Shown piece by piece: positions 7,928-57,577 of a stretch of 64,000 nt of DNA (its first letter is position 1; each line of letters starts with the position of its first letter). A program made the position numbers and the translations under genes. The stretch lies in contig CAZTXT010000001.1 in assembly GCA_964617735.1 (NCBI GenBank), forward strand, positions 203,589-267,588, given 5' to 3'. The notes below the pieces were generated by a model that was given only the letters and a program-made list of their open reading frames with translations, was not told the DNA's origin and did not search any database. Origin of the DNA: an uncultured Candidatus Saccharibacteria bacterium. GTDB lineage: Bacteria > Patescibacteriota > Minisyncoccia > Phycocordibacterales > DSPV01.

Positions 7928-8242
7928 ATGCAAACGGAAAACACAAAAATGAATAAGCACGACAAGGAGCATATCCTTACCGGAGAGGTCGTATCCACGA
8001 AAATGAAAGACACGATCGTGGTGCGCATCAGCCGATACAAGAAAGTCCCGAAGTACGGCAAATACGTCACGCGCTCGGAGCGTTTTAAAGTGCACGATCC
8101 GGGGAATACGGCGACTCTCGGCGATATGGTCTATATCAAGGAAACTCGGCCGATATCGAAGGACAAGCATTTCATACTGGTCGGGAAAAAAGCTGCAGCG
8201 AAAACCGCAGAAGAAGCCACTGTTGTCGACCAGGAAGTATAA
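7928..8242 (+). CDS. rpsQ: 30S ribosomal protein S17 (C-terminal extension)
   Basis: ILTGEVVSTKMKDTIVVRISRYKKVPKYGKYV; start at the first in-frame ATG after the rpmC stop (an alternative start at 7949 is possible). Confidence 0.85.
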   Translation: MQTENTKMNKHDKEHILTGEVVSTKMKDTIVVRISRYKKVPKYGKYVTRSERFKVHDPGNTATLGDMVYIKETRPISKDKHFILVGKKAAAKTAEEATVVDQEV

Positions 8243-9730: not shown

Positions 9731-10966
9731 ATGGCAGTTACTCCACAACTCACTCAATATATAAACCAGGCTCGGAAGGCGGGCATGACGGACGAGCAGA
9801 TAAAGGCAGAGCTCTTAAGGGCTGGCTGGAGTGCAACAGATGTTGAGGCGGTTCTTCCGCCGAGCGATCCCGTTCCGCCGATTCCGGCGCTCCAAACCAT
9901 GTTCCAGCAGGCCGCACAGGCTGCTACGGCGATGCCTCAACCGCAGATGCCGGTCAAACGCCGCAGTCATGCGGGCTTTTGGATAACAGTCATCATCCTC
10001 CTCCTCGCCGGCGGAGCGGCTTACTATTTCCTCCCGCAACTCACCACACTCTATGATAAATACTTTGGGGCATCAGAGAGTACGAACCTCTTGCCCTATA
10101 CTCCTCCGGTAACCGATGTGAATTCCGAAAACCCTGCTATTCCGAATCCAACCGAAGCGACTTCAACCGAGGGCTGGAAGACATATACAAACGACAAGTA
10201 TGGGTTTGAGTTTCAGTATCCGGCAGATATGAACATAATTCCTGTGGAGGAGGGCCAAGTTAACTTGGCAAATCAAAAACAGCCACCACCAGTGGCAACG
10301 GAACCACCAAGTCCACTGATGCTGTTCTTTGAGGAGAGTTCAAGTAATTCTTTGGAATGGGCAAGTAAAAGATTGCAAAAGTTTGGTGGCGTACGTGAAG
10401 TTACATACCTCGAAAAGAATCTTCCACTGTTCAAAGGGGTGAATGGTGTTTTAACTTTTGAATTGGTTGATGAAATAACAGAGAAGCCTGGATACGCGTT
10501 TAGTAAAAACGGAGTCAACTATGCCTTTTTGAGCGGGATAAGTGGAAATACCAAGTTGGTTAAAATCCTCTCAACCTTCAAATTTGTTTCCTCGACGACA
10601 TCGGTTACTGACTCTCAAGCTATACAGGAGTTGGTTACCACACAACTCTCTGAACTAAGAGCGGTCACTTCTTTTCAGCAAGCCGAGGCCATTGCTTTAA
10701 AGTATGGCACGAGCGCTTATATTCAAAAGATTAAGTCCCAACAGCAGCAAATAGACTCTCTTCCGGATTCTTTTAAAGAAAGCATGGTGAAGACGTTTGT
10801 AAGCAGCTTACCTAATAGTTCTTTCCAATTCACTTCGGTAAATATTTCAGGGGACGGAGCAACCGCAATAATTTCTGATGGTAAGACCACCGGTACCATC
10901 ACTCTCAAAAAAGAGAGTGGACTATGGAAAATAGACAATGAGGCCTACAAAGAAACGGCCAATTAA
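9731..10966 (+). CDS. membrane-anchored hypothetical protein (411 aa) inside the spc-type operon; N-terminal ~40-aa module shared with gene 28116..28778
   Basis: N-terminus LTQYINQARKAGMTDEQIKAELLRAGWSATDVEAVL then one TM helix (FWITVIILLLAGGAAYYFL); 3' two-thirds markedly AT-richer than 5' third. Confidence 0.65.
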   Translation: MAVTPQLTQYINQARKAGMTDEQIKAELLRAGWSATDVEAVLPPSDPVPPIPALQTMFQQAAQAATAMPQPQMPVKRRSHAGFWITVIILLLAGGAAYYFLPQLTTLYDKYFGASESTNLLPYTPPVTDVNSENPAIPNPTEATSTEGWKTYTNDKYGFEFQYPADMNIIPVEEGQVNLANQKQPPPVATEPPSPLMLFFEESSSNSLEWASKRLQKFGGVREVTYLEKNLPLFKGVNGVLTFELVDEITEKPGYAFSKNGVNYAFLSGISGNTKLVKILSTFKFVSSTTSVTDSQAIQELVTTQLSELRAVTSFQQAEAIALKYGTSAYIQKIKSQQQQIDSLPDSFKESMVKTFVSSLPNSSFQFTSVNISGDGATAIISDGKTTGTITLKKESGLWKIDNEAYKETAN

Positions 10967-15182: not shown

Positions 15183-15758
15183 TTACTGAAAAACATCGGA
15201 GATACAGTAGGTCCCGCCGTAGGCCGTATGGGGATTACCATTCATGAGGTCCGTAAAACCTCCGCCACTGTTTGCCTCCGCCCACGCGAAATTTCGTATC
15301 CCGGTCGGATCGGTGAAGAAGAGCATGTAGCGGAATTGTTTCCTACCGCAATAATAGGTTTCGGAATTACCGTTATTCGGCGTAGTCATGTATCCCATTA
15401 AGAATCCTGAAGAGAAGTCGGAGGAGGTGAAGTGCGGCAGTGCGGAGAGGTACCCACCGCTTTGCGTGAGTTCGGAGAGGGTGCTGCTGCAGGGAAAGAA
15501 TTGCGGAGGATTTGATTGATCCATTAGACACACCTCGGGGTTTCCCGTGGACACATCGTGCGGATAATTGCCGTTGTGATCTTGTGCATATTGGTCCAGG
15601 GCGATCTGAATCGAGCGGACGCTTTCAAGAACTTGCGCCCCCTTCGCGTTTTTCCGTGCATTGTTCAACGATGCGAGGACCATACTCGCAAGCAGATTAA
15701 TGATCGCGATGACGACTAACAATTCGATGAGTGTGAATGCGCGCTGTGTGCGGGGCAC
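15183..15758 (-). CDS. type IV pilin-like protein (prepilin N-terminal cleavage/methylation motif)
   Basis: N-terminus MPRTQRAFTLIELLVVIAIINLLASMVLASL; convergent with secY, wedged between secY and adk. Confidence 0.8.
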   Translation of the reverse strand: MPRTQRAFTLIELLVVIAIINLLASMVLASLNNARKNAKGAQVLESVRSIQIALDQYAQDHNGNYPHDVSTGNPEVCLMDQSNPPQFFPCSSTLSELTQSGGYLSALPHFTSSDFSSGFLMGYMTTPNNGNSETYYCGRKQFRYMLFFTDPTGIRNFAWAEANSGGGFTDLMNGNPHTAYGGTYCISDVFQ

Positions 15759-33391: not shown

Positions 33392-34507
33392 ATGCGAAAA
33401 ATGCGCAAAGGTTTCTCCCTCATCGAGCTCTTGACGGTCATTTCGATCATCACGCTGTTGGCCAGTATTTTCTTCGCGGTGACCGCTTCCTCGTATCGCA
33501 AGGGCAGGGATGCAAAGCGTATCGAACAGGTTCACCAGATAGACCTCGCAGTCCAGCATTACAAGGCGGACAATAATGGGAACGCTCCCACGCTCCAAAG
33601 CACCTGTGGAGCAGACAAGTCCTACGCCGCTTCATGTGTCGCGGTTTCAAGTGCCGCTCCGAATACCGCCGAAGCAGCCGGATGGACCAAATTCAAAAGC
33701 GATATCCAGCCCTACATGCCTGCAGTCCCCGACGATCCCTGCGGTTCAAGTTGCACGAGCGCTTCCGGTGGCCCCGTCGGCTACACGTACGTCTCACCCG
33801 CGGCGATGAACTATCTCTGCGGTAATTTCTGCGATACGACCGGTGCCAGCCTGGCTGATTCGTATCAATTGTACGCGACACTCGAAGCGACTTCGACCCC
33901 TTCCGGGAGTTCGAGTTTCGGTTCGTTCTTCTTCCCCTCAAGTTCCGCTCCGACCATCACCTTCTCGGCAAACCCCACTTCGGTGAGCGCCAACGGACAT
34001 ACGCTGCTGACGTGGTCGACTGCCAATGCAACCTCGTGCACGGGGAGCGGCTCCGGCAGTGTGGGCTCCTGGCCAGGTTCCAAGACTTTGTCGGGAAGTC
34101 TTGACCCTGGCGCGATTCAAACCACAACGACCTTTACCCTCAACTGCAACGGTTCGGGTGGTTCGACGAGCCAGAGTGTGGTGGTGATCAGTGGCAGTGC
34201 TCCTCCGGTCTTGAACTTCTCTGCAGATCCGACTGCCATCATAGCAGGAGAGAGTAGCACGTTGACGTGGACCACCTCGGGTGCGACCCCCCCGTGCGGG
34301 ATTTCAGGCACACTAGAAGTAGGAGCAGGCCCATTCCCAGGCCTCCCCCTACTTGTATCTGCATCAGGCAGTACCCGTGTAACTCCAGGGGTCGGAGCTT
34401 TTCAGCCGGATACCGCGACGTATACCCTTTCCTGTACTGGTCCCGGGGGCAATTCGAGTCAAAGCGTTTCCATAACCGTTACTCCCTTTACCCCATCCCC
34501 ACCGTAA
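33392..34507 (+). CDS. large type IV pilin-like protein with two C-terminal Cys-containing beta-repeat domains
   Basis: MRKMRKGFSLIELLTVISIITLLASIFFAV prepilin N-terminus; Ser/Thr/Gly-rich; repeats ending ...Y(T)L(S/N)C(T/N)G(P/S)GG.S.QSV. Confidence 0.75.
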   Translation: MRKMRKGFSLIELLTVISIITLLASIFFAVTASSYRKGRDAKRIEQVHQIDLAVQHYKADNNGNAPTLQSTCGADKSYAASCVAVSSAAPNTAEAAGWTKFKSDIQPYMPAVPDDPCGSSCTSASGGPVGYTYVSPAAMNYLCGNFCDTTGASLADSYQLYATLEATSTPSGSSSFGSFFFPSSSAPTITFSANPTSVSANGHTLLTWSTANATSCTGSGSGSVGSWPGSKTLSGSLDPGAIQTTTTFTLNCNGSGGSTSQSVVVISGSAPPVLNFSADPTAIIAGESSTLTWTTSGATPPCGISGTLEVGAGPFPGLPLLVSASGSTRVTPGVGAFQPDTATYTLSCTGPGGNSSQSVSITVTPFTPSPP

Positions 34508-48751: not shown

Positions 48752-49867
48752 TTAATGATAGAGAAACTGGGCGTTGATCATTAGGTCTTGCAGGGTTATC
48801 AGGACTGGTTGCGCTGCCAAGGCAGCAATTAAACAAACTGTAAACAGGAGGCGCAATCCTTTTGTGGATATTCCATTGAATTCTGAAATGATGTGTGGAA
48901 TGACCGAGAGAATAAAGAGCGGAAGTAATGTCTCCCAGATGAAAATTACCGGCATAAAATAGCGGGCAGCTTGATAATGAGATGTGAGGAAGGTCACATA
49001 CAGAAAAAAGCTCATTATTAAGATCGTTCTGTAAAAGCTTATTGGAAGGGGAAATAAGTCTCTTTTTTTGTAAAACAAGAGAATCGAAACTGTGATACTT
49101 ATAATCGTGAGTAGTGAGATGGTAGTAAGTAAGTCCAGCGGTATATGTTGAGGCGCGAATTCTGCATAATGATAGAATATCTTTCCGATAATATCTTTGA
49201 TGTGCTGAACTGGCATGTACCACATATACGGATCCACAATAATAAATGTCATAATTGAAGTGAGAGTGGCTGTTATTACATTTTTCAGTCCGATTTTTTT
49301 CACCGTAGGAATAAGAAAGAAAAGAAAGGAAATTCCGCCTATGTCGGCTCTAGTGGCGATGGCTAATCCAGCCACAAATCCCCACAAGGCCCCCTGTTTC
49401 CAGGAGGTTTTCTGGACTTTACAGATATACAAGGTGAAGAGGCATAGCAGTACGATTAAAAGCGACGCAACGGCCGATGGCGGTGTGGAGTATCCATACA
49501 GATAGCTTGACGACAAGGGTATTAGGACCGCAAGCCACCACAAAGTGTTTTTGCTTAAAAGAAAACAGAGCCCGCAAATAACTGCAATTGTCAATCCGTT
49601 AAATAATGATAAAAAGACTATCAATGAGTCATCATATGATAGATGTAAAGTCCAATGGGTCGCTATTGTCCCGATAATAATCGGTGCTCCTGGATGACCA
49701 TATGCCCACGCGGTGATGAATTGTTTAGGGTTATTCTCGACAACATATTGAGCTTGCGATGACCACATGGTTACATCAATTGCGTCAAAGAAATACCACT
49801 GCAGGCCATGGAGCAGAGATGCTACAAGGAAAGTACCGAGAATGATGTATCTTTGCGCGTGGTTCAT
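48752..49867 (-). CDS. AT-rich polytopic membrane protein, possible GT-C-fold glycosyltransferase or ligase
   Basis: >=10 TM helices, aromatic-rich loops; low GC. Confidence 0.5.
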   Translation of the reverse strand: MNHAQRYIILGTFLVASLLHGLQWYFFDAIDVTMWSSQAQYVVENNPKQFITAWAYGHPGAPIIIGTIATHWTLHLSYDDSLIVFLSLFNGLTIAVICGLCFLLSKNTLWWLAVLIPLSSSYLYGYSTPPSAVASLLIVLLCLFTLYICKVQKTSWKQGALWGFVAGLAIATRADIGGISFLFFLIPTVKKIGLKNVITATLTSIMTFIIVDPYMWYMPVQHIKDIIGKIFYHYAEFAPQHIPLDLLTTISLLTIISITVSILLFYKKRDLFPLPISFYRTILIMSFFLYVTFLTSHYQAARYFMPVIFIWETLLPLFILSVIPHIISEFNGISTKGLRLLFTVCLIAALAAQPVLITLQDLMINAQFLYH

Positions 49868-49970
49868 GGTTTTATTTCTGCGTATTATAGCAAGATACTG
49901 AGGATCTAACAGTGCACTTGAGATTCAAACATCTGTGAAAATTTGCTAGTATTTTCTAGCATATACGAAT

Positions 49971-51665
49971 ATGTATTTCTTCGGAAAGAAAGTATCGGAT
50001 CAATATACCAATGCAGTGATTTTCTTACGCCAACGTCCGGTGTTTACCACGTTTCTTGTGTTCGTTTTTTTCTTTTCTATTTTTTTCGCTGTATATTTCT
50101 CGGTAGGGAAACTTGCGGGAAATGACGACCATTTTTTTCATTTTCGATTCGCGCAAGAGATGCTCAATAAAGGATTTTTCCAATCATTCTCGGATTTCAA
50201 GTCGATCTATTTTTCGAAGATGGCCCAGGGGAATGAATACTTTATGTATTATAATTTCCTCTTTTATCTTTTAGTCATACCGTTCACGTTTATTACGCCT
50301 CTGTTCTTGGGCATTAAATTATATGCAGTTTTCGCCGCGGGGGCCGCGTTCACACTTTTGTATTGGTGCCTGAAGCAGTTTTCCGTAAAGAATCCGTTTA
50401 TCTGGACACTCATTCTGTTCTCAGTCACAAATGCCGGTTTCGTAAAGCGATTCCTGCTTTCTCGCCCTTATACACTAGCACCCGCGTTATTGTTGCTGTT
50501 ACTCTATTTTCTCTACAAAAGAAACCGTATCGGAGTATTCCTAATTAGTTTTGCGTATTTGTTTTGGCACAGTTCGACATTCTTTTTGCCGGTTTGCGTT
50601 ACCTTATGCTTTTACCTTGCGGAGAGATTTCATCGATCCATAGGAGATCGGAAGACCCTTTTGGCCAGCATTTATGGCACCCTTGCCGCTGTAGCCGCAA
50701 CGTTTCTGGTTTCGTCCGGATTTCTTCTCTTTCTCAAAGATACCCTTTTCGGCATTTACTGGGATACTATCCTTGGAAAGAATGTACCGATTGCGGAAGG
50801 TGCTGAACTTTACCCGATCAACGTTTTTTTGTTTGCGAGGATAGATACATTCATGTTCTCGGGATTTATACTAGCAGTGGTCCTTGACGTGTACGGCTAT
50901 ATTGCCCAATTAAGATTTATAACAAAATCAATATGGTCTGATATTTCTGAACAAAGGCGGCATCTACAGACCTGCATATTTTTAGTGACCATTTCCTTTG
51001 CGCTGGGTTCTATCGTTGTGAGCGCTCGCTTTGTGGATTTTTTCACGTTCTTTGCAGCTCTCTATGTGGCGCTCACACTCGACAAGATGCGTTCCTATGT
51101 CGTTCTTTCAAACGAAGTCGTCCGTAAAGCTGTAGCAATGAGTATCTTCGTAGTGGTCGGTTATTTGTTTTTGAGCAACTTGCTCACCCTCCAGGAATCT
51201 ATCGCATATAATGTGACCGATTTTTCTTCTATCGGTGGTTGGCTTGAGATGCATTCCAAACCCGGAGATATCGTGGTACTTGAAGACTGGAGTTGGTTTC
51301 CCCAATTGTATTACTATAGTCCCAAAAATTATTACAGTTCAGGCCTCGAACCGCGCTTCATGTATACCTACAATCCCGGACTATACTGGGAGTCCGTGCA
51401 TTTAAAGGATGGATATCTATGCAGGGAAGCACGATGTCCAGATATTATGGAAGCGGCTCACGCTGCGCTGTGGGGTACGAATGCACACACCTATGCTTTT
51501 GTGGAAGGCGATAATATTGCTCGAGCGCTTAAAAATGATTTTCACGCCTCCTATATTGTAATTTCTGGCGAAAGCGCAATGAACTATATAGCCTCCAATA
51601 ATAGCCATTTTGTGCGCAATGCTTATGATGAAGATTCTAGAACCGTACTCTACAGTCTTAAGTAG
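49971..51665 (+). CDS. AT-rich polytopic membrane protein (564 aa) with a C-terminal soluble domain
   Basis: ~12 TM helices then a ~180-aa Tyr/Trp-rich periplasmic-type domain; low GC; divergent from the 48752 gene. Confidence 0.5.
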   Translation: MYFFGKKVSDQYTNAVIFLRQRPVFTTFLVFVFFFSIFFAVYFSVGKLAGNDDHFFHFRFAQEMLNKGFFQSFSDFKSIYFSKMAQGNEYFMYYNFLFYLLVIPFTFITPLFLGIKLYAVFAAGAAFTLLYWCLKQFSVKNPFIWTLILFSVTNAGFVKRFLLSRPYTLAPALLLLLLYFLYKRNRIGVFLISFAYLFWHSSTFFLPVCVTLCFYLAERFHRSIGDRKTLLASIYGTLAAVAATFLVSSGFLLFLKDTLFGIYWDTILGKNVPIAEGAELYPINVFLFARIDTFMFSGFILAVVLDVYGYIAQLRFITKSIWSDISEQRRHLQTCIFLVTISFALGSIVVSARFVDFFTFFAALYVALTLDKMRSYVVLSNEVVRKAVAMSIFVVVGYLFLSNLLTLQESIAYNVTDFSSIGGWLEMHSKPGDIVVLEDWSWFPQLYYYSPKNYYSSGLEPRFMYTYNPGLYWESVHLKDGYLCREARCPDIMEAAHAALWGTNAHTYAFVEGDNIARALKNDFHASYIVISGESAMNYIASNNSHFVRNAYDEDSRTVLYSLK

Positions 51666-51841
51666 TGCTCCAGTGGTTATCCACACGTCTCTTTTCACCC
51701 CCGGTTCATTTAGCCGTATAATAAGCGGGTACTTAAACAGTATCTGCCTTCGCAGCAGCGTGGGCGGCCATTAATATAAGGTCGGCATCTGGCCTTTAAC
51801 GGGGAGCGGATGCACAATTTATCAATAGTTACAAGCAAACA

Positions 51842-52273
51842 ATGTCAAAAAAGTTACACTCGAAAGGTTTTACGCTCATCGAGCTTTTGGTAGTTATCGC
51901 GATCATCGGTATCTTGGCATCCATCGTCCTCGCGAGTCTCAACACGGCGCGCGGCAAAGCAGCCGACGCTGCTATTAAGGGAGATTTGGCCCAAATTCGG
52001 TCCCAGGCGGCCATCTTTCAAGATCAAAACACTAACAATACTTTCACTGGTCTATGCACGAACGCCCAGTTAGTGACGATACTCACCCATGCAAACACTC
52101 AGAGTTCAGATTCCGCAAATGCAGTATGTAACGTAACCCCGACTACCGGTGCTAATTACGCTGTTTCAGTCCCACTCAAGACATCATCAACCGCCCACTG
52201 GTGTGTTGATTCCAATGGTATTTCCATTTCGAGATCAACAAAGCTTGGAGCAGGTGAGTACGTCTGCCAATAA
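51842..52273 (+). CDS. pilA: type IV major pilin (PilA-like) with C-terminal disulfide loop
   Basis: MSKKLHSKGFTLIELLVVIAIIGILASIVLASL; C-terminal C...C pair. Confidence 0.8.
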   Translation: MSKKLHSKGFTLIELLVVIAIIGILASIVLASLNTARGKAADAAIKGDLAQIRSQAAIFQDQNTNNTFTGLCTNAQLVTILTHANTQSSDSANAVCNVTPTTGANYAVSVPLKTSSTAHWCVDSNGISISRSTKLGAGEYVCQ

Positions 52274-52378
52274 TCAGGTTTTGTAAGGTGACAACAACAT
52301 GGAAAGGCTGTGCCTTTCCATGTTGTGTTATGTGCATAACTTATCAAGAACAGCGCTGTAAGCATGCTAAGATAACAT

Positions 52379-53866
52379 TTGCCCATGACCTCTCGCTTCT
52401 TCAAGATTCTTTTGATGTCAGTAGGGGCAGTGATTTTAAGTCTGCCGACTGCTACGTTCGCGCTCTCATGCACTGGTAGTCCTTGGGTATGCCATGAGGC
52501 TCTCGATATAACTTGTTCTGCGTCGCCAAACCCGGTTAAAGCTAACCAAACGACCACTTTAACTTCCCAAGTAACCGGAGGTGCAGCTGGAAGTGCTCCG
52601 TACACATACGTTTGGATGGATGGTTCTGGAAACACGATTAGCTCTGGTCAGACCATTACTGAAAGTTACGATACGCAAGGTGCTGTCACCCGTATTGTAA
52701 AAGCGACCGGACAACCAGTAGGCGGATATCAGTCATATGGACAGTGCAGCGTAACGGTAACCGTCTCTGGCCTCTTAAATGGTGATTCATGTACGCTAGA
52801 TTCGCAATGCTCTAGCGGTTATTGTGATTTAAGCAACGGTGATCCGGGTATCTGCGCGACGCCCACACCCTTCCGTGCGACCTGTTCGGTCTCTCCTGCA
52901 ACCACCACGGTGGATCCCACGACGGGAGAGGCGGATGTTATCTACAGCGCCTCGCCGACCGGAGGCACCGGCAACTACACCTACGTATGGAGCGGATCGG
53001 TTTGTCCGGGGACCAACTCGGCAACCGGCGACGAGTCCATCTCGGGGTCGGAGACGACCATTGACGCCTCGTACCGCTATGCCGGCTGCAAGCGCGGCGT
53101 TGCGCGGATTTCTTCCGGCAATCAGACCATTACCTGCCAAGCGCAGGTTACGGTAACACCGCCGCCCAAGCCCGCGATCACACTTACCGCAAGTCCCAAT
53201 CCGGTCCAAAATTCAGGCGATACCGCGACGATAAGCTGGTCGGTTACGGGCGCGACAAGCTGTACGGCAAGCGGCGCATGGGGAAACTGGAGCGAAAATA
53301 TATCCGGTACTGGCTCTGATTCCGAGGAAACCGATCCGGTGGTAAGCGGTACACCCCAGCGCTACACCCTTACCTGCACGGGTCCTGGCGGGCAGAGCTC
53401 GGCTTCGGTTATCGTAAGCGTCAGGCCGCCGCCTTCGTGCACCTATACCTATAGCGATTGGGAGCCGGCGAGTTGCACGTTCGGCTCTTCTCAAACTAGA
53501 ACCTATACTTCCAGTCCCGACGGTTGCACCGGAACACCGGGACCGACGACGCGCTCGTGCACAGCCGGACCGCCAAGCGGCGAACCGCCCGATCTCTCCG
53601 GCGGGCTCAAGGATCCCTTGGGCAATATAACGCTCTTGGGATTTCTGGAGAAGACGCTGCGCGCCTTCATTAATCTTCTCATTCCCATCATTGTCCTCTT
53701 CTTCCTCATCACCGGTCTTATGTTCATCTTGGCCCGCGGTAATCCGGCAAAGCTTGCGACCGCAAAGACCGCATTCCTCTATACGACGATCGGAGCAGGA
53801 GTTGTCTTGGGAGCGTGGGCGCTCGCACAGCTCGTTAGCAATACTATCAATGCGATTCAGGGATAG
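52379..53866 (+). CDS. secreted Cys-rich repeat protein ending in a VirB2/TrbC-like two-helix pilin domain
   Basis: signal peptide; repeats with (P/N)YTYVW and ...YTLTCTGPGGQSSASV; C-terminus LLIPIIVLFFLITGLMFILARGNPAKLATAKTAFLYTTIGAGVVLGAWALA resembles TrbC/VirB2 pilins. Confidence 0.55.
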   Translation: MPMTSRFFKILLMSVGAVILSLPTATFALSCTGSPWVCHEALDITCSASPNPVKANQTTTLTSQVTGGAAGSAPYTYVWMDGSGNTISSGQTITESYDTQGAVTRIVKATGQPVGGYQSYGQCSVTVTVSGLLNGDSCTLDSQCSSGYCDLSNGDPGICATPTPFRATCSVSPATTTVDPTTGEADVIYSASPTGGTGNYTYVWSGSVCPGTNSATGDESISGSETTIDASYRYAGCKRGVARISSGNQTITCQAQVTVTPPPKPAITLTASPNPVQNSGDTATISWSVTGATSCTASGAWGNWSENISGTGSDSEETDPVVSGTPQRYTLTCTGPGGQSSASVIVSVRPPPSCTYTYSDWEPASCTFGSSQTRTYTSSPDGCTGTPGPTTRSCTAGPPSGEPPDLSGGLKDPLGNITLLGFLEKTLRAFINLLIPIIVLFFLITGLMFILARGNPAKLATAKTAFLYTTIGAGVVLGAWALAQLVSNTINAIQG

Positions 53867-54278
53867 CACATTCACGAGAGGAAAGCAGTGGCACGCTCTC
53901 GTTGCACTCGTGCTCGTGTTTCTCATCCTCTGCGCGCCACTGCTTTCGTCGGCGCAGACGACGGGAGGAGTTACATTCAAAAGTCTTGTCGGCAAGTTAC
54001 TGGCGTATGGGAAACCCATCACGGGTCTTTTAGTGAACCTTGCGGTTTTCCTCCTCGCATTCGGTATCTTTCGCTATATAAACGCCGGTGCTGACGTCAA
54101 ACGTAGGCAGGAGGGAGCGAAGCTCTTGCTGTGGGGGCTTATTTCCGTCGTGGTGATGCTCTCGATGTGGGGCATCATCAATATCGTGCTCAACACGTTC
54201 TTCAGCAGCGACAGCACGAGCCACTTTGAACTCTCCAATGATCTCTGGAACGGGAGCTCTTCCGATACCAATCCGTAG
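53850..54278 (+). CDS. VirB2/TrbC-like pilin family protein (142 aa)
   Basis: signal/TM1 then LLVNLAVFLLAFGIFRYINAGADVKRRQEGAKLLLWGLISVVVMLSMWGIINIV (two-helix hairpin with A/G-x-D/NP...AK loop); start at internal ATG 53850. Confidence 0.5.
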   Translation: MRFRDSTFTRGKQWHALVALVLVFLILCAPLLSSAQTTGGVTFKSLVGKLLAYGKPITGLLVNLAVFLLAFGIFRYINAGADVKRRQEGAKLLLWGLISVVVMLSMWGIINIVLNTFFSSDSTSHFELSNDLWNGSSSDTNP

Positions 54279-54334: not shown

Positions 54335-55132
54335 ATGGTCTGGGTATTTTTCTTTTATGTACTGCTCTTGGGTTCCGCGATCGGGAGCTTTCTCAATGTG
54401 GTGGTGTTGAGGTTCAATACCGGACGCACCCTCGCGGGCCGCTCCGCTTGTCTTACCTGCGCCGCGAAGCTCTCATGGTATGACCTGGTGCCGGTGTTCA
54501 GTTTCTTTGTGTTGCGCGGGCGCTGCCGTTCCTGCCGCAGCAAGATCTCCTGGCAGTATCCTCTCGTCGAGCTTGCTGCCGCGCTGATCTATTTTTCCAT
54601 CGCGTGGCAGTTTTTGCATTCGGGAATGGGTACCGACGATATCCTCTTGCTTTTGTTCAGCATCGTTTCATGGCCGTTGCTTTTGGCAATCCTGGTGTAT
54701 GATGCGCGGCACAAAGTGATCCCCGACCCCTTTGTGTACGGGTTCACCGCGCTCACTCTTTTATTCCGAGTGTTGCTAGGTTTTTTGCACGGCTTCGATT
54801 CCTATTTCCTGGCTGATCTTTTGGCGGGCCCGCTTTTGTTCATTCCGTTCTATCTTCTGTGGAGGTTATCGGGCGGTAGATGGATGGGATTGGGAGATGG
54901 AAAGCTTGCGCTGGGTCTGGGTTTTGCTGGAGGGCTTGGCGGTGGGATCTCCGCTATCGTGCTGGGGTTTTGGTTCGGGGCGGCGGTCGGGCTTGTGCTC
55001 ATTGCCGCTTCGAGATTTCGCGGATCGAGCGGGCTTTCGATGAAAAGCGAGCTTCCTTTCGGACCATTCCTCATTGCGGGTCTCTTTGCCGTGCAGTTTT
55101 TTGGTTTCTCGCTTTTTAATATCGGATTCTAA
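54335..55132 (+). CDS. pilD: prepilin peptidase PilD (A24 family) with N-terminal CxxC...CxxC
   Basis: CLTCAAKLSWYDLVPVFSF...CRSCRSKISWQYPLVE; catalytic Asp-containing TM region. Confidence 0.85.
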   Translation: MVWVFFFYVLLLGSAIGSFLNVVVLRFNTGRTLAGRSACLTCAAKLSWYDLVPVFSFFVLRGRCRSCRSKISWQYPLVELAAALIYFSIAWQFLHSGMGTDDILLLLFSIVSWPLLLAILVYDARHKVIPDPFVYGFTALTLLFRVLLGFLHGFDSYFLADLLAGPLLFIPFYLLWRLSGGRWMGLGDGKLALGLGFAGGLGGGISAIVLGFWFGAAVGLVLIAASRFRGSSGLSMKSELPFGPFLIAGLFAVQFFGFSLFNIGF

Positions 55133-55133
55133 C

Positions 55134-55763
55134 ATGCTATCGCTCCGCCGCTTTCTGTATAGCAAACGCACCCGAGGCTTTACCCTCATCGAATTGCTCG
55201 TTTCGCTTTCCATCATGATAATCATCACCGGCATCGCACGGTTCGGGAAAAGCCGCTACGAGCGTTCGATCTTACTGACGAACCTCGCGTACGACGTCGC
55301 GCTCTCGATACGGGAAGCGCAGGTATACGGCATCAATGTGCGCTCCGCCGGCGGTAACGCGCCCTTTGACGCAGGGTATGGGATACATTTCTCCACCGCG
55401 TCGCCGGGGGATACGTTCTCCTTGTTCGCCGATACCAACAACGATCATTTTTACAGCGTTTTGGAAAAAGTCCGGGACTATAAGATAAAGAACAACAATA
55501 AAATCTCCCGATTATGCACGGTTTCCATCAATCAGAGCGCCTGTGTCGATATCCCGTCGGGTTCCCTCGATATCACCTTCCGGCGCCCCGACCCCAATGC
55601 CTGTTTCAACGGCACGGGCAGTGCTGTCGCTAATGCGATCCCGACGAGCGATTGCATCAATGCGACCGGAAAATCGCAAGCGCAGATCACTGTCAGCGCC
55701 GACGATGGAAGCACCCGCATCATCTATGTTTTCTCGACCGGTCAGATATCATTGTCGCCATGA
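55134..55763 (+). CDS. minor pilin / pseudopilin
   Basis: KRTRGFTLIELLVSLSIMIIITGIA prepilin N-terminus; start at internal ATG 55134. Confidence 0.7.
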   Translation: MLSLRRFLYSKRTRGFTLIELLVSLSIMIIITGIARFGKSRYERSILLTNLAYDVALSIREAQVYGINVRSAGGNAPFDAGYGIHFSTASPGDTFSLFADTNNDHFYSVLEKVRDYKIKNNNKISRLCTVSINQSACVDIPSGSLDITFRRPDPNACFNGTGSAVANAIPTSDCINATGKSQAQITVSADDGSTRIIYVFSTGQISLSP

Positions 55764-56398
55764 TGAATAAGTCCTTCAAGAAATCTTTCTCGGTCGGGTT
55801 CTCGACGGTCGAACTGCTGGTTTCAGTCGCGCTCTTCTCCTTGGTTGTGCTCATCTCCATCGCTTCGATGCTCGTGCTGATGGATGCCAATCAGAAAGCG
55901 CGCTCGGTGAAGACTGCGGTAGATAACCTCAACTTCGTCGTTGACGATATCTCGCGGAATTTGCGGCTCGGAAGCAAATTCTATTGCCTGACCTCGGTGC
56001 CCACAGCGCCGATCACGATCGGGGGCAATACCCAAGATTGTCTCTATAACCCGAGCCAGTCGTTCTCGGGCGGCGGTGTCTATGTAGCTTTGCGGGACCG
56101 CAGCGGCAAGGCTCTGATATACCGGTTCAACGGGACTCGCATCCAAGAGAAACTTACCGGAAGCGCCTGGTCGGGCTACACGGATTCGGATCCGACCAAC
56201 GGCTTCCTCGATATGACCTCGGCTAGCGTCACGATAACGTACATGCGCTTTTTCGTCTTCAACACCGCGGCGAATTCGGGAGCCCAGCCATACGTCATCA
56301 TCGCGATAAAGGGGCGCGCCGGACAGAAAGCCTCCACACAGACTTCCTTTTCGATCATGACCTCAATTTCCCAACGTATTCCCCATAACGCTGAATAA
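55760..56398 (+). CDS. minor pilin / pseudopilin
   Basis: MMNKSFKKSFSVGFSTVELLVSVALFSLVVL; start overlaps the previous stop (ATGA). Confidence 0.7.
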   Translation: MMNKSFKKSFSVGFSTVELLVSVALFSLVVLISIASMLVLMDANQKARSVKTAVDNLNFVVDDISRNLRLGSKFYCLTSVPTAPITIGGNTQDCLYNPSQSFSGGGVYVALRDRSGKALIYRFNGTRIQEKLTGSAWSGYTDSDPTNGFLDMTSASVTITYMRFFVFNTAANSGAQPYVIIAIKGRAGQKASTQTSFSIMTSISQRIPHNAE

Positions 56399-56406
56399 AA
56401 AACGCG

Positions 56407-57030
56407 ATGTATGCAATGAGTAAGAAAAAACAACGGACAGTGTTGAAGGCGACGAGAAAAAGTTTTACGCTCGTCGAGACGATGCTTGCGGTGACGATAC
56501 TCTCGATGGCTATCATCGCACCGCTCTCCATAGCGTCGAATTCTCTTACTGCCGCGACGACTGGAAAAGATCGGCTCGTCGCGATCGCGCTTGCTCGGGA
56601 TGCCATCGAGTATGTGAGAAACCTCCGTGATACGAACCGCCTCAACGGAGTGTCGTGGCTTAATGGGCTCGATAACAACAACTGTATCAACGGCAGCAAT
56701 CTAAGCGCATGCAATCTATGCTTCACGGCCAATGGTTGCGAGGTTGATTCGCTGCAAGGAGATGGCGCATCGAACCTGCATGGGCGCGGTGTTGGAGGAT
56801 TGCTCAAAAGTCAGTGTACCTCCCCGAGCTGTACCGATACGTATGGTCTCTACGCGTACTTTCCGAGCACCTATCTGGACAGCAAGTTTACGCGCTGGGT
56901 TGTCATTCAATGGGTCAACGATGCGGCACGTGTAGCCAATCGCGAAGTGCGGGTTACCGCGACGGTGACCTGGAAGACGATCTTTAGCACGAAAAAGGTC
57001 GAGATAGTGGAGCAGCTCACGAACTGGTAA
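56407..57030 (+). CDS. minor pilin / pseudopilin
   Basis: RKSFTLVETMLAVTILSMAIIAPL. Confidence 0.7.
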   Translation: MYAMSKKKQRTVLKATRKSFTLVETMLAVTILSMAIIAPLSIASNSLTAATTGKDRLVAIALARDAIEYVRNLRDTNRLNGVSWLNGLDNNNCINGSNLSACNLCFTANGCEVDSLQGDGASNLHGRGVGGLLKSQCTSPSCTDTYGLYAYFPSTYLDSKFTRWVVIQWVNDAARVANREVRVTATVTWKTIFSTKKVEIVEQLTNW

Positions 57031-57031
57031 C

Positions 57032-57577
57032 ATGACGCACTACTCTCTTCGCCGACATCGTCTCACTCCTGAAGTCTCAAGGCACAGGGGCTTCACCCTC
57101 TACTACGCCGTGCTCTTCGGGAGCATCATTTTGGCGATCGGGGCGTCCATGCTCAATCTCTCGCTCAAGGAATTCCTGTTGAGCTCGTCGCTCAAGGAAT
57201 CCGAGTACGCTTTCTTTGCGGCGGATTCAGGAACGGAATGTGTGCTCTATTGGGATTTGCACGGCATTCCGGTTACGTTTCCACGTACTGCAGTGGACGG
57301 AAATGCCAATCTCTCGCAGATCCAGTGCAACGGCGCTTCGATAAGCCCGGCACCGGTCGTCTCGAGCGCTTCGGCGAATTATGCTACGACTACCTTTTCC
57401 TATAACATCTCTGACAGTTCTGGCACTCCGAAGTACGGAGTAGTGCTCGAGGTTGGCAAGCAGGTCAGCTCGATCGACGGAAGCATCACGACCACGATCA
57501 TCTCCCGAGGCTACAATGTACTGTACAACTCAACGAGCAATCGCAAGATCGAGCGTGCTATTGTTACGCAATACTGA
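57032..57577 (+). CDS. pilin-like membrane-anchored protein (PilX/pseudopilin-like)
   Basis: HRGFTLYYAVLFGSIILAIGASMLNL N-terminus. Confidence 0.55.
   Translation: MTHYSLRRHRLTPEVSRHRGFTLYYAVLFGSIILAIGASMLNLSLKEFLLSSSLKESEYAFFAADSGTECVLYWDLHGIPVTFPRTAVDGNANLSQIQCNGASISPAPVVSSASANYATTTFSYNISDSSGTPKYGVVLEVGKQVSSIDGSITTTIISRGYNVLYNSTSNRKIERAIVTQY

What the first reader, a model, noticed from the sequence alone, without database searches (positions are those of the whole stretch)
52379..54278. Two VirB2/TrbC-like pilin-domain proteins inside a type IV pilus (T4P) locus, one fused to a large Cys-rich repeat ectodomain
Both ORFs end in the two-helix hairpin with the A/G-x-NP/D...AK loop typical of conjugative (T4SS) pilins. 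Yet they sit between the major T4P pilin gene pilA and the prepilin peptidase gene pilD, and no VirB4/VirD4 is in the window.

The first carries a ~400-aa signal-peptide-led, Cys-rich repeat region (YTYVW and TCTGPGG repeats) upstream of the pilin-like domain. That suggests a surface-displayed adhesin anchored through a VirB2-like module. Mixing T4SS-type and T4P-type pilins in one locus is not a described arrangement.
Basis: partly seen in the sequence, partly recalled or inferred. Interest (0 to 1): 0.6.

Follow-up and report, generated by a model that had tools for sequence, protein, structure and literature searches.

The report
VirB2-like adhesin pair in pilus operon
Two genes for conjugative-pilin-like membrane hairpin proteins, one carrying a large adhesin-like outer domain, sit inside the type IV pilus operon of one small clade of ultrasmall (Patescibacteria) bacteria; the protein family is known, but this placement and the fusion are not described and hint at a combined host-attachment apparatus.

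Summary
ORF1 (52385-53866, 493 aa) and ORF2 (53850-54278, 142 aa) both reach the Pfam gathering score for PF18895 (T4SS_pilin). They lie between pilA and pilD in a Paceibacteria-type type IV pilus (T4P) locus, and the 64-kb window has no VirB4, VirD4 or VirB6.

ORF1 is a signal peptide, three Ig-like domains plus two small Cys-rich modules (18 Cys), and a C-terminal two-helix hairpin. ORF2 is a plain small family member.

VirB2-like pilins and pilin arrays are already described in Patescibacteria. Ectodomain fusions turn out to be frequent: 39 of the 150 nearest cluster representatives are 250 aa or longer.

The placement is what is unusual. Among 80 PilD loci from species-representative genomes, only one carries such genes. 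With the window and three other contigs it forms one monophyletic Taylorbacteria-related clade.

The hairpin is conserved at 56-72% identity and the ectodomains at 24-37%. The closest named relative is listed as lacking VirB4 in a published survey.

My reading is a surface adhesin tethered by a VirB2-type module, plus a partner subunit, co-expressed with pilD and the minor pilins for host attachment. Whether it polymerises, and on what machine, is unresolved. I class it as a new variant of a known kind, of moderate interest.

The parts
51842..52273 (+). pilA, the major type IV pilin (143 aa) with a class III signal peptide (KGFTLIELL)
   Evidence: Pfam N_methyl E=1.2e-9 and NCBIfam IV_pilin_GFxxxE. 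A promoter-like site lies at 51694-51722.
52288..52331 (+). Strong RNA hairpin directly after pilA. It is a likely attenuator or terminator that separates the highly expressed pilin gene from ORF1-ORF2-pilD.
   Evidence: Fold energy is -35.4 kcal/mol, z = -7.4, with 0 of 200 shuffles as stable. Equivalent hairpins follow pilA in L003 (with a U-tract) and in L088. The terminator scan did not flag it because it has no T-run.
52385..53866 (+). ORF1, 493 aa: signal peptide + Ig-like/Cys-rich ectodomain + C-terminal VirB2-like hairpin
   Evidence: Supported by the ORF list, independent gene calls, Pfam PF18895 at 27.5 bits and the AF2 model.
52385..52462 (+). ORF1 signal peptide (aa 1-26, MTSRFFKILLMSVGAVILSLPTATFA|LS)
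   Evidence: A hydrophobic segment spans aa 5-29 and the n-region is positively charged. The cleavage site is inferred, not tested.
52463..53599 (+). ORF1 ectodomain (aa 27-405). It has three Ig-like beta-sandwiches (about aa 41-128, 166-258 and 264-344), a small Cys knot (131-160) and a Cys-rich CxYxYSxW...QTRT module (350-395).
   Evidence: In the AF2 model, domain 3 has pLDDT around 90. Foldseek finds Ig-type adhesion molecules and the GhpA grappling hook at E 1e-6 to 1e-4. All 18 Cys lie here. Pfam PKD and SprB hits are below threshold.
53600..53863 (+). ORF1 VirB2-like module (aa 406-493): a DPLG junction motif, helix 417-449, the loop ARGNPAKLATAK and helix 454-492
   Evidence: PF18895 matches here and AF2 pLDDT is 80-92. 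Identity is 61-68% to the same module in six other fusion proteins. It finds 3,749 cluster representatives at E<=1e-3.
53850..54278 (+). ORF2, 142 aa: a small VirB2-like protein. It has a signal peptide (aa 1-36, ...LLSSAQ|TT), helix 43-78, the loop NAGADVKRRQEGAK, helix 83-124 and a 20-aa S/N/D-rich tail. It overlaps ORF1 by 17 nt.
   Evidence: PF18895 scores 26.8 bits against a cut-off of 26.6. NCBIfam NF045849 gives E=1e-6, below its cut-off. The AF2 model has pLDDT 73.5. The sequence is identical to P0121 and 43% identical to an array member in L005 that gives a weak TrbC hit.
54335..55132 (+). pilD, the prepilin peptidase (265 aa), starting 57 nt after ORF2 with no stable hairpin in between
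   Evidence: Pfam A24_N_bact E=2e-29 and Peptidase_A24 E=4e-9. The intergenic fold has z = -0.2.
55134..57577 (+). Four minor-pilin genes (mp1-mp4) downstream of pilD, followed by ligA. They give the operon context.
   Evidence: N_methyl hits. The synteny is conserved in most of the 80 related loci.

Best explanation
ORF1 and ORF2 are Patescibacteria-type VirB2/TrbC-like (PF18895) proteins.

Topology and roles. Both are exported by Sec and lose a signal peptide. Each then sits in the membrane as a long two-helix hairpin, with both ends outside and the short positively charged loop in the cytoplasm. ORF1 carries about 380 residues of disulfide-rich Ig-like domains on the outward-facing N-terminus of the hairpin, so it is an adhesin-like surface protein tethered by a pilin module. 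ORF2 is the plain subunit.

Origin and expression. The pair (fusion followed by an ORF2-type gene) also occurs inside ordinary 'pilin arrays'. It was moved once, in the ancestor of a small Taylorbacteria-related clade, into the slot between pilA and pilD. There it heads the pilD/minor-pilin transcription unit behind the pilA hairpin.

Proposed mechanism. The two proteins are made together with the type IV pilus and serve host-cell attachment. ORF2-type subunits (and perhaps others elsewhere in the genome) form a short VirB2-type fibre or oligomer on a T4SS core encoded elsewhere. ORF1 is a low-copy adhesive subunit whose ectodomain projects from the outside of that fibre.

Shown: family membership, architecture, conserved synteny, single origin, and the difference in conservation between hairpin and ectodomain.

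Inferred: topology, co-transcription, adhesion, polymerisation, and the existence of a T4SS core in this genome.
For: Family and architecture:
- Both proteins reach the PF18895 gathering score.
- All 115 relatives match PF18895, and 77 of them also match TrbC/VirB2 PF04956.
- AF2 gives hairpins of 33-42-residue helices, longer than a plain membrane span, with pLDDT 80-92 in ORF1.
- The loops carry net positive charge, and the hydrophobic segments are as expected.
- The ectodomain is three Ig-like domains that match adhesion molecules.

Conservation:
- Hairpins are 56-72% identical and ectodomains 24-37% identical across seven fusions.

Placement:
- The same gene order (pilA, fusion, zero or one further PF18895 gene, pilD) is found in L003/L007, L004, L088 and L089.
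- These five loci are monophyletic in a LigA+PilD tree.
- Among the 80 species-representative PilD loci, only L007 has such genes.
- A fusion followed by an ORF2-like gene also occurs in a canonical array, L005.
- ORF1 and ORF2 overlap by 17 nt, and no hairpin precedes pilD.

Literature:
- In solved conjugative pili both termini lie outside and the loop faces the lumen; the Gram-positive VirB2-like protein PrgF is essential for conjugation, and modelling, mutagenesis and chemical labelling support that it forms a pilus (preprint 10.64898/2025.12.18.695078).
- The pilin array in the T4SS cluster of S. epibionticum is essential (PMC10633639).
Against: - No T4SS core gene is in the window.
- The closest named relative with the same arrangement (Ca. 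Taylorbacteria RIFCSPHIGHO2_02_FULL_46_13, GCA_001821015.1) is listed as VirB4-negative in PMC12102498 Table S1. So are all higher-GC Taylorbacteria MAGs in that part of the table.
- There is no direct sequence or fold match to any solved VirB2 or TraA.
- A 380-aa N-terminal domain could not sit on every subunit of a VirB2-type helix, so ORF1 could only be a minor subunit.
- L088 has the fusion alone in this slot.
- Co-transcription and surface exposure are untested.
- IS200-type transposase genes sit in or next to the slot in two of the five loci, so the slot may simply be permissive.
Confidence: 0.45

Rival explanations
1. T4SS-independent tethered adhesin. The clade has no type IV secretion core. 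The conserved hairpin is an oligomerising membrane anchor, possibly docking to the T4P platform or to ORF2. It holds the Ig-domain stalk at the cell surface, where it acts with the type IV pilus in host contact. No VirB2-type fibre is made.
For: - The nearest relative with the arrangement is listed as VirB4-negative, and 9 of 23 Taylorbacteria MAGs lack VirB4, including all those with 49-51% GC. The window itself is about 52% GC.
- The genes sit in the T4P operon and not near any T4SS gene.
- The content of the slot varies: fusion alone, two fusions, or fusion plus a small gene.
- In the same genome the same Ig repeat is also displayed on a T4P-type pilin.
Against: - The VirB4 absence comes from scaffold-level MAGs and from one survey. 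The source genome itself could not be searched.
- The hairpin helices are much longer than a membrane span, and their extramembrane amphipathic part and loop are conserved as in pilins.
- Related fusions lie inside ordinary pilin arrays. Most Paceibacteria genomes in the survey table are VirB4-positive, but the genomes holding those arrays were not themselves checked.
Confidence: 0.3
2. Hitch-hiking. These are ordinary T4SS pilin-array genes that landed in a recombination-prone, variable slot of the T4P locus. They work only with a T4SS elsewhere, and the position has no functional meaning.
For: - In relatives the pilA-pilD slot holds 1-4 pilA paralogues or unrelated large ORFs (L029, L040, L043).
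- Y1 (IS200-like) transposase genes lie in or beside the slot in L003 and L004.
- A low-GC island lies just upstream.
- Canonical arrays also sit among housekeeping genes, far from any T4SS gene.
Against: - The arrangement has been kept on the same strand with short gaps across five lineages whose PilD proteins are only 54-58% identical for the three aligned (window, L003, L004), and whose fusion ectodomains have diverged to about 30-37%.
- There is translational overlap, and no terminator precedes pilD.
Confidence: 0.15
3. Hybrid use. The VirB2-like proteins are handled by, or incorporated into, the type IV pilus machine itself.
For: Only the position between pilA and pilD, at the head of the minor-pilin operon, and the possible absence of a T4SS.
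Against: - ORF1 and ORF2 have no class III signal peptide or G|FxxxE motif.
- The [DN]PLG junction does not put a Glu at +5 consistently.
- The two-helix hairpin topology is incompatible with known T4P pilin extraction, which uses a single N-terminal helix (established knowledge).
Confidence: 0.05
4. These are not pilin homologues at all. The C-terminal hydrophobic hairpins are generic membrane anchors that match PF18895 by composition.
For: - Scores are only just at the Pfam threshold.
- A profile search of the PDB finds only spurious transmembrane hairpins such as CCR5.
- Foldseek finds only generic helical hairpins.
- hhalign against A. tumefaciens VirB2 gives a probability of 1.7%.
Against: - ORF1 scores E=7e-30 against an independent family HMM.
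- The ORF1 hairpin finds 502 cluster representatives at E<=1e-10.
- 77 of 115 relatives match the classical TrbC profile.
- Polar and charged positions are conserved: [DN]PLG, ARGNPxKL..AK and GAW.
- The hairpin is twice as conserved as the ectodomain.
Confidence: 0.05

Closest known systems
VirB2-like pilins and pilin arrays of Patescibacteria (Wang et al. 2023, PMC10633639; Quinonero-Coronel et al. 2025, PMC12102498)
   Same: - Same Pfam family (PF18895, with overlap to PF04956).
- Signal peptide plus two-helix hairpin.
- Chromosomal, tandemly arranged, sequence-divergent paralogues.
- Often not next to virB4: pilin genes lie near virB4 in 1,135 of 1,948 assemblies.
   Different: - Here the genes lie inside the T4P operon between pilA and pilD. 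In TM7x the T4P loci are explicitly not associated with the T4SS.
- Only two genes are present.
- One is fused to a roughly 380-aa Ig-like ectodomain. The survey paper reports finding no adhesins.
Canonical Paceibacteria array: gyrA, a SAM-methyltransferase, an SBP-like gene, then 4-5 PF18895 genes (loci L005, L006, L090, L095, L103, L104, L115, L119)
   Same: - It contains an ORF1-type fusion (P0012, 389 aa; hairpin 68% identical) directly followed by an ORF2-type gene (43% identical).
- This is the likely source of the window's pair.
   Different: - Different genomic neighbourhood.
- More paralogues.
- No T4P genes within 10 kb.
Classical VirB2/TrbC conjugative pilins (A. tumefaciens VirB2, PDB 8CUE/8EXH; Pfam PF04956)
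   Same: - Long signal peptide.
- Small mature protein of two hydrophobic helices joined by a short basic loop.
- A G-G-x-T-[DN]-P motif before helix 1 aligns in register.
   Different: - No significant direct similarity: hhalign probability 1.7%, and no PF04956 hit for ORF1 or ORF2.
- Monoderm host.
- No virB operon context.
- Cyclisation and other processing are unknown.
PrgF, the VirB2-like pilus protein of Gram-positive plasmid pCF10 (preprint 10.64898/2025.12.18.695078), and the Mycoplasma ICE 'Mbov_0395 family pilin-like conjugal transfer protein' (NF045849)
   Same: These are monoderm two-helix pilin-like proteins. ORF2 matches NF045849 at E=1e-6.
   Different: - The NF045849 score of 28.3 is below the cut-off of 40.
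- Those proteins are encoded within conjugation gene clusters.
- No ectodomain fusions are reported for them.
Pilus-associated adhesins: VirB5 tip protein, PrgB, and large T4P minor pilins such as window ORF 33392-34507
   Same: The proposed role is the same: an adhesive domain presented by a filament subunit or anchor. The window's own 371-aa prepilin carries the same Ig repeat.
   Different: The attachment module differs. Here it is a C-terminal VirB2-like hairpin rather than a T4P N-terminal helix, a VirB5 fold or an LPXTG anchor.

Membership tests
PF18895 T4SS_pilin (VirB2-like pilins of Patescibacteria and other monoderms) | Score at or above the Pfam gathering threshold (26.6 bits) | tested here: met
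   ORF1 scores 27.5 bits. ORF2 scores 26.6 bits (195-aa form) and 26.8 bits (142-aa form). ORF1 scores E=7e-30 against an independent family HMM.
PF18895 T4SS_pilin (VirB2-like pilins of Patescibacteria and other monoderms) | Cleavable signal peptide followed by two long hydrophobic helices joined by a short charged loop | tested here: met
   Shown by the AF2 models and by hydropathy and loop charge. The cleavage itself is inferred.
PF18895 T4SS_pilin (VirB2-like pilins of Patescibacteria and other monoderms) | Encoded beside T4SS core genes (virB4, virB6, virB3) | tested here: not met
   None is in the 64-kb window, and none lies within 10 kb in the four related loci. The literature does not treat this as obligatory: pilin genes are near virB4 in only 1,135 of 1,948 assemblies.
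PF18895 T4SS_pilin (VirB2-like pilins of Patescibacteria and other monoderms) | A T4SS core (VirB4) somewhere in the same genome | not testable with these tools
Published Table S1 lists the closest relative, GCA_001821015.1, as VirB4-negative.
PF18895 T4SS_pilin (VirB2-like pilins of Patescibacteria and other monoderms) | Polymerises into an extracellular pilus | not testable with these tools
   No multimer modelling tool was available, and there are no experimental data.
Classical TrbC/VirB2 (PF04956) | Match to the PF04956 profile or to a solved VirB2/TraA pilin | tested here: not met
   Neither ORF1 nor ORF2 hits PF04956 at E<=0.1. The PDB profile search finds no pilin, and hhalign against VirB2 gives a probability of 1.7%. 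At family level the link does exist: 77 of 115 relatives match PF04956, best E=6.8e-9.
Type IV pilins (T4P, class III signal peptide) | N-terminal G|F/M-x-x-x-E prepilin peptidase motif (N_methyl) | tested here: not met
   ORF1 and ORF2 have no N_methyl hit and no motif, whereas pilA and the minor pilins do.
NF045849 Mbov_0395 family pilin-like conjugal transfer protein | NCBIfam score at or above the cut-off (40 bits) | tested here: not met
   ORF2 scores 28.3 bits (E=1e-6) and ORF1 scores 15.1 bits.
Ig-like/PKD-type bacterial surface adhesin domains (ORF1 ectodomain) | Beta-sandwich Ig-like fold in tandem | tested here: met
   The AF2 model has three beta-sandwiches, the third with pLDDT around 90. 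Foldseek gives 69 PDB matches at E<=1e-3, all multi-Ig adhesion-type proteins. The Pfam PKD hit is below its cut-off (15.9 against 23.5).

The most novel reading that the evidence does not exclude
In a Taylorbacteria-related clade that has lost the type IV secretion core, VirB2-type hairpin modules have been kept, fused to adhesin ectodomains and wired into the type IV pilus operon. Conjugative-pilin-like proteins would then work without a T4SS, as part of, or docked to, the T4P-based host-attachment apparatus. More broadly, the VirB2 hairpin would be a general surface-display module of Patescibacteria, supplying the 'missing adhesins' of these epibionts.
Probability: 0.2. Interest if true: 0.8.

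Novelty: new variant of a known kind. Interest (0 to 1): 0.5.

Why it matters
Patescibacteria live attached to host cells. In the one genetically tractable species, both the type IV pili and the T4SS with its VirB2-like pilin array are essential, but how they cooperate is unknown, and no adhesin has been assigned to the T4SS.

This locus offers three leads:
- It is a natural case where the two systems' components are physically and probably transcriptionally linked.
- It points to a widespread but undiscussed architecture, a surface domain fused to a VirB2-like hairpin. These proteins are candidates for the host-recognition proteins.
- If the clade truly lacks VirB4, it gives a test case for T4SS-independent use of a conjugative-pilin fold.

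All three can be tested with complete genomes, multimer modelling and the existing Saccharibacteria genetics.

Tried and rejected
- Profile search of PDB sequences with the family alignment. It returned only spurious transmembrane hairpins (CCR5, G8P) and no VirB2 or TraA.
- Foldseek of the ORF2 model against the PDB. There was no hit at E<=1e-3, only generic helical hairpins, so fold search cannot test pilin identity for such a small fold.
- hhalign of the family against A. tumefaciens VirB2. The alignment was in register but not significant.
- Building a broad VirB2 alignment from PLSDB. tblastn returned only close Rhizobiales relatives, so I abandoned this.
- Identifying or walking the source genome. 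The exact-sequence look-ups gave no accession and only short Logan contigs. The genome is not among the GTDB representatives hit, and its size is not found in the stored part of Table S1. VirB4 presence could therefore not be tested.
- A prepilin-peptidase-like site at the [DN]PLG junction. I rejected this because Glu is not consistently at +5.
- A lipoprotein reading of ORF1 ('FALS|C'). I rejected this because the Cys is not conserved after the signal peptide in homologues.
- A separate promoter for ORF1. None was found between the pilA hairpin and ORF1.
- The Walker-A ORFs near canonical arrays as T4SS ATPases. I rejected this: they are IF-2 and ClpB.
Full report
**What is in the sequence**

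The window is a piece of a Patescibacteria (Paceibacteria-type) chromosome. It carries the ribosomal-protein/secY cluster and a complete type IV pilus (T4P) locus. The gene order is pilM, pilN-like, pilO-like, a small ORF, pilB, a response regulator, pilT, pilC, two polytopic membrane proteins, pilA, ORF1, ORF2, pilD, four minor pilins and ligA.

ORF1 runs from 52385 (ATG; the maximal ORF starts at TTG 52379) to 53866 and encodes 493 aa. ORF2 runs from ATG 53850 to 54278 and encodes 142 aa. It overlaps ORF1 by 17 nt and ends 57 nt before pilD. Independent gene calls on two Logan contigs that carry the identical genes give the same 493-, 142- and 265-aa products.

**Are they VirB2/TrbC-like?**

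Both proteins reach the Pfam gathering score for PF18895 'T4SS_pilin': ORF1 scores 27.5 bits and ORF2 26.6-26.8 bits, against a cut-off of 26.6. The scores are marginal, but several other results back them up.
- A family HMM built from 122 PF18895 proteins, none of them a fusion, scores ORF1 at E=7e-30.
- The 88-residue ORF1 hairpin alone finds 3,749 cluster representatives at E<=1e-3 and 502 at E<=1e-10 among 1.84 billion.
- All 115 aligned relatives match PF18895, and 77 of them also match the classical TrbC/VirB2 profile PF04956, best E=6.8e-9.
- NCBI's pipeline names several relatives 'pilin'.

AlphaFold2 gives the expected signal-peptide helix plus a hairpin of two long helices in both proteins. 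In ORF2 the helices are 43-78 and 83-124. In ORF1 they are 417-449 and 454-492, with pLDDT 80-92. The loops are short and basic: ARGNPAKLATAK in ORF1 and NAGADVKRRQEGAK in ORF2.

Direct links to solved pilins fail.
- A profile search of all PDB sequences finds only spurious transmembrane hairpins.
- Foldseek finds only generic helical hairpins.
- hhalign against A. tumefaciens VirB2 is in register but not significant, with a probability of 1.7%.

Membership of PF18895 is therefore met. Homology to classical VirB2 is supported only at family level.

**ORF1 architecture**

After the signal peptide come three Ig-like beta-sandwiches at about aa 41-128, 166-258 and 264-344; the third has pLDDT around 90. 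Between and after them lie a small Cys knot (131-160) and a Cys-rich 'CxYxYSxW...QTRT' module (350-395). A [DN]PLG junction motif follows, and then the hairpin.

All 18 cysteines lie in the ectodomain, and S+T+G make up 38% of the protein. Foldseek matches multi-Ig adhesion molecules (CEACAM, nectins, DSCAM) and the GhpA grappling hook at E 1e-6 to 1e-4. 'YTYVW' occurs twice and 'TCTGPGG' once.

**How general is the fusion?**

Homologues with the same plan (signal peptide, variable Cys-rich ectodomain, near-identical hairpin) include P0002 (651 aa), P0004 (428), P0006 (554), P0012 (389), and fusions of 411, 734 and at least 503 aa in L004, L088 and L089.

Across seven such proteins the last 84 residues are 56-72% identical, while the ectodomains are 24-37% identical. 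The polar positions [DN]PLG, ARG[NA]PxKL..AK and GAW are invariant or nearly so. That pattern is not what a generic membrane anchor shows.

Among the 150 best cluster representatives for the hairpin, 39 are at least 250 aa and 9 at least 500 aa, nearly always with the hairpin at the C-terminus. Their ectodomains differ. One 1,619-aa protein has Big_7, InlB B-repeat and M64-like regions. Others have fn3, or Big_1/Filamin domains. One 555-aa protein consists of six tandem hairpins. The fusion is thus a recurrent architecture, although the papers I could search do not discuss it.

**How unusual is the position?**

I fetched 80 PilD loci from species-representative genomes, with 10 kb on each side, and scanned all ORFs with the family HMMs. 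Only one locus, L007 (Ca. Taylorbacteria RIFCSPHIGHO2_02_FULL_46_13, the same sequence as L003), has PF18895-like genes. Relaxing the threshold to E<10 added nothing.

The canonical locus is pilB, RR, pilT, pilC, 1-4 pilA paralogues, pilD, mp1-4 and ligA. A metagenome scan with the hairpin alignment added two more T4P-embedded cases: L088 has a 734-aa fusion alone, and L089 has a fusion plus an 87-aa hairpin-only gene. L004 has two fusions.

In a neighbour-joining tree of LigA+PilD, the window, L003, L088, L089 and L004 form one clade that contains all such loci and only those. The insertion was therefore a single event. It has been retained while the PilD proteins of the three aligned members (window, L003, L004) diverged to 54-58% identity.

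All other hits of the hairpin lie in a different, widely conserved context: gyrA, a SAM-methyltransferase, an SBP-like protein, then 4-5 PF18895 genes. These arrays sit among housekeeping genes such as IF-2, ClpB and a NifS-like gene, with no T4SS ATPase within 10 kb.

In one such array (L005), an ORF1-type fusion is directly followed by an ORF2-type gene 43% identical to ORF2. The window's pair therefore looks like a sub-module lifted out of an array.

**Expression signals**

A very stable hairpin follows pilA at 52288-52331 (-35.4 kcal/mol, z = -7.4). Equivalent hairpins follow pilA in L003 (with a U-tract) and in L088. No promoter-like site lies between it and ORF1. No stable structure separates ORF2 from pilD.

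ORF1 and ORF2 therefore probably head the pilD/minor-pilin transcription unit, fed by read-through from pilA. This is inference.

**What is known**

VirB2-like pilins are documented in 1,948 Patescibacteria assemblies. They lie near virB4 in 1,135 of them, and 441 arrays of 2-11 genes are known (PMC12102498). In Southlakia epibionticum the pilin series within the T4SS cluster is essential (PMC10633639; PMC12857230).

[quoted passage not shown] The survey paper states that no adhesins such as PrgB were detected.

A 2025 preprint shows that PrgF, a VirB2-like protein of a Gram-positive plasmid, is essential for conjugation, and its modelling, mutagenesis and labelling data support a pilus on a VirB6 pentamer. 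It also restates that in all solved conjugative pili both termini are outside and the loop lines the lumen. An N-terminal ectodomain on such a module would project from the outside of a fibre.

**The T4SS question**

No VirB4, VirD4 or VirB6 is in the window. I could not reach the rest of the source genome.

Table S1 of PMC12102498 lists GCA_001821015.1, the only named genome with the same arrangement (887 kb, 876 CDS), as VirB4-negative. In the same part of the table 9 of 23 Taylorbacteria MAGs are negative, including all with 49-51% GC. The window has about 52% GC.

This is suggestive but not decisive, because these are scaffold-level MAGs.

**Interpretation**

The robust part is as follows. 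ORF1 is an adhesin-like Ig-domain surface protein tethered by a conserved VirB2-type hairpin. ORF2 is a plain VirB2-like subunit. The two were inserted once into the T4P operon of a small clade and have been kept there.

I favour, at 0.45, co-expression with the T4P for host attachment. In this reading ORF1 is a minor adhesive subunit of a VirB2-type fibre or oligomer assembled on a T4SS core elsewhere in the genome.

The rivals are:
- a T4SS-independent tethered adhesin, at 0.3. This is strengthened by the VirB4-negative relative;
- accidental parking in a variable, transposase-visited slot, at 0.15;
- handling by the T4P machine itself, at 0.05. There is no prepilin motif;
- a non-homologous generic anchor, at 0.05.

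**Verdict**

The T4P-embedded placement and the fusion class are apparently undescribed.

I class it as a new variant of a known kind, with interest 0.5.

Noticed in passing
window 33392-34507 (+): A 371-aa prepilin-type protein (MRKMRKG|FSLIELL, N_methyl E=7e-6). Its C-terminal half carries two copies of the same Ig-like 'TLxCxGxGG' repeat as ORF1 domain 3 (39% identity over 127 aa, E=6e-9). One genome thus shows the same surface module on a T4P pilin and on a VirB2-like hairpin.
   Followed up: partly
window 48752-51665 (371-aa ORF on the - strand, 564-aa ORF on the + strand): A low-GC island (0.44 against about 0.53) between pilC and pilA encodes two polytopic membrane proteins with no Pfam match even at E<=1. 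Homologues of the 564-aa protein sit next to pilA in L032, L043, L048, L071 and L085. They may be pilin-modifying (GT-C-like) enzymes; this was not tested.
   Followed up: partly
window 52288-52331; L003 ~9960-9992; L088 ~7969-7998: A very stable hairpin lies directly after the major pilin gene (-35.4 kcal/mol, z = -7.4 in the window) and is conserved in position in relatives. It is a likely attenuator that sets the ratio of pilin to downstream gene products.
   Followed up: partly
protein P0261 (555 aa, from the search of protein representatives): A single polypeptide made of six tandem PF18895 hairpins (Pfam E=1e-51, six stretches), in effect a covalently linked 'poly-pilin'.
   Followed up: no
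loci L005, L006, L090, L095, L103, L104, L115, L119: There is a widely conserved Paceibacteria context for VirB2-like arrays: gyrA, a SAM-methyltransferase, a roughly 434-aa SBP_bac_8-like protein, then 4-5 PF18895 genes. The arrays are flanked by IF-2, ClpB and a NifS-like gene, with no T4SS ATPase within 10 kb. The constant SBP-like neighbour is unexplained.
   Followed up: partly
L003 8458-9156 (-) and L004 3584-4273 (+): IS200-type Y1 transposase genes lie in or next to the pilA-pilD slot in two of the five T4P-embedded loci. This suggests the slot is a hot spot for rearrangement.
   Followed up: no
L003 11998-12261; L089 1533-1796 (87-aa proteins, P0133): These hairpin-only genes start exactly at the [DN]PLG motif and have no signal peptide. 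That marks the natural N-terminal boundary of the pilin module and means they must insert without Sec cleavage.
   Followed up: no
window 15183-15758 (-): A further prepilin-type gene (RAFTLIELLVVIAI) lies far from the main T4P locus, beside secY and adk.
   Followed up: no
ORF1 aa 350-395 (window 53432-53569); three copies in P0002: This is a Cys-rich module with the pattern 'C-x-Y-x-Y-S-x-W-x(2-4)-C ... QTRT ... P-x-G-C-x-G ... C', reminiscent of thrombospondin type 1-like repeats. The model has low confidence here (pLDDT about 50), and the module is not identified by Pfam.
   Followed up: no
PMC12102498 Table S1 (supplement 2, part 14): Of the 23 Taylorbacteria MAGs listed there, 9 are VirB4-negative. 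These include all with 49-51% GC and the one that carries the T4P-embedded VirB2-like genes. A VirB4-less sub-lineage may exist.
   Followed up: partly
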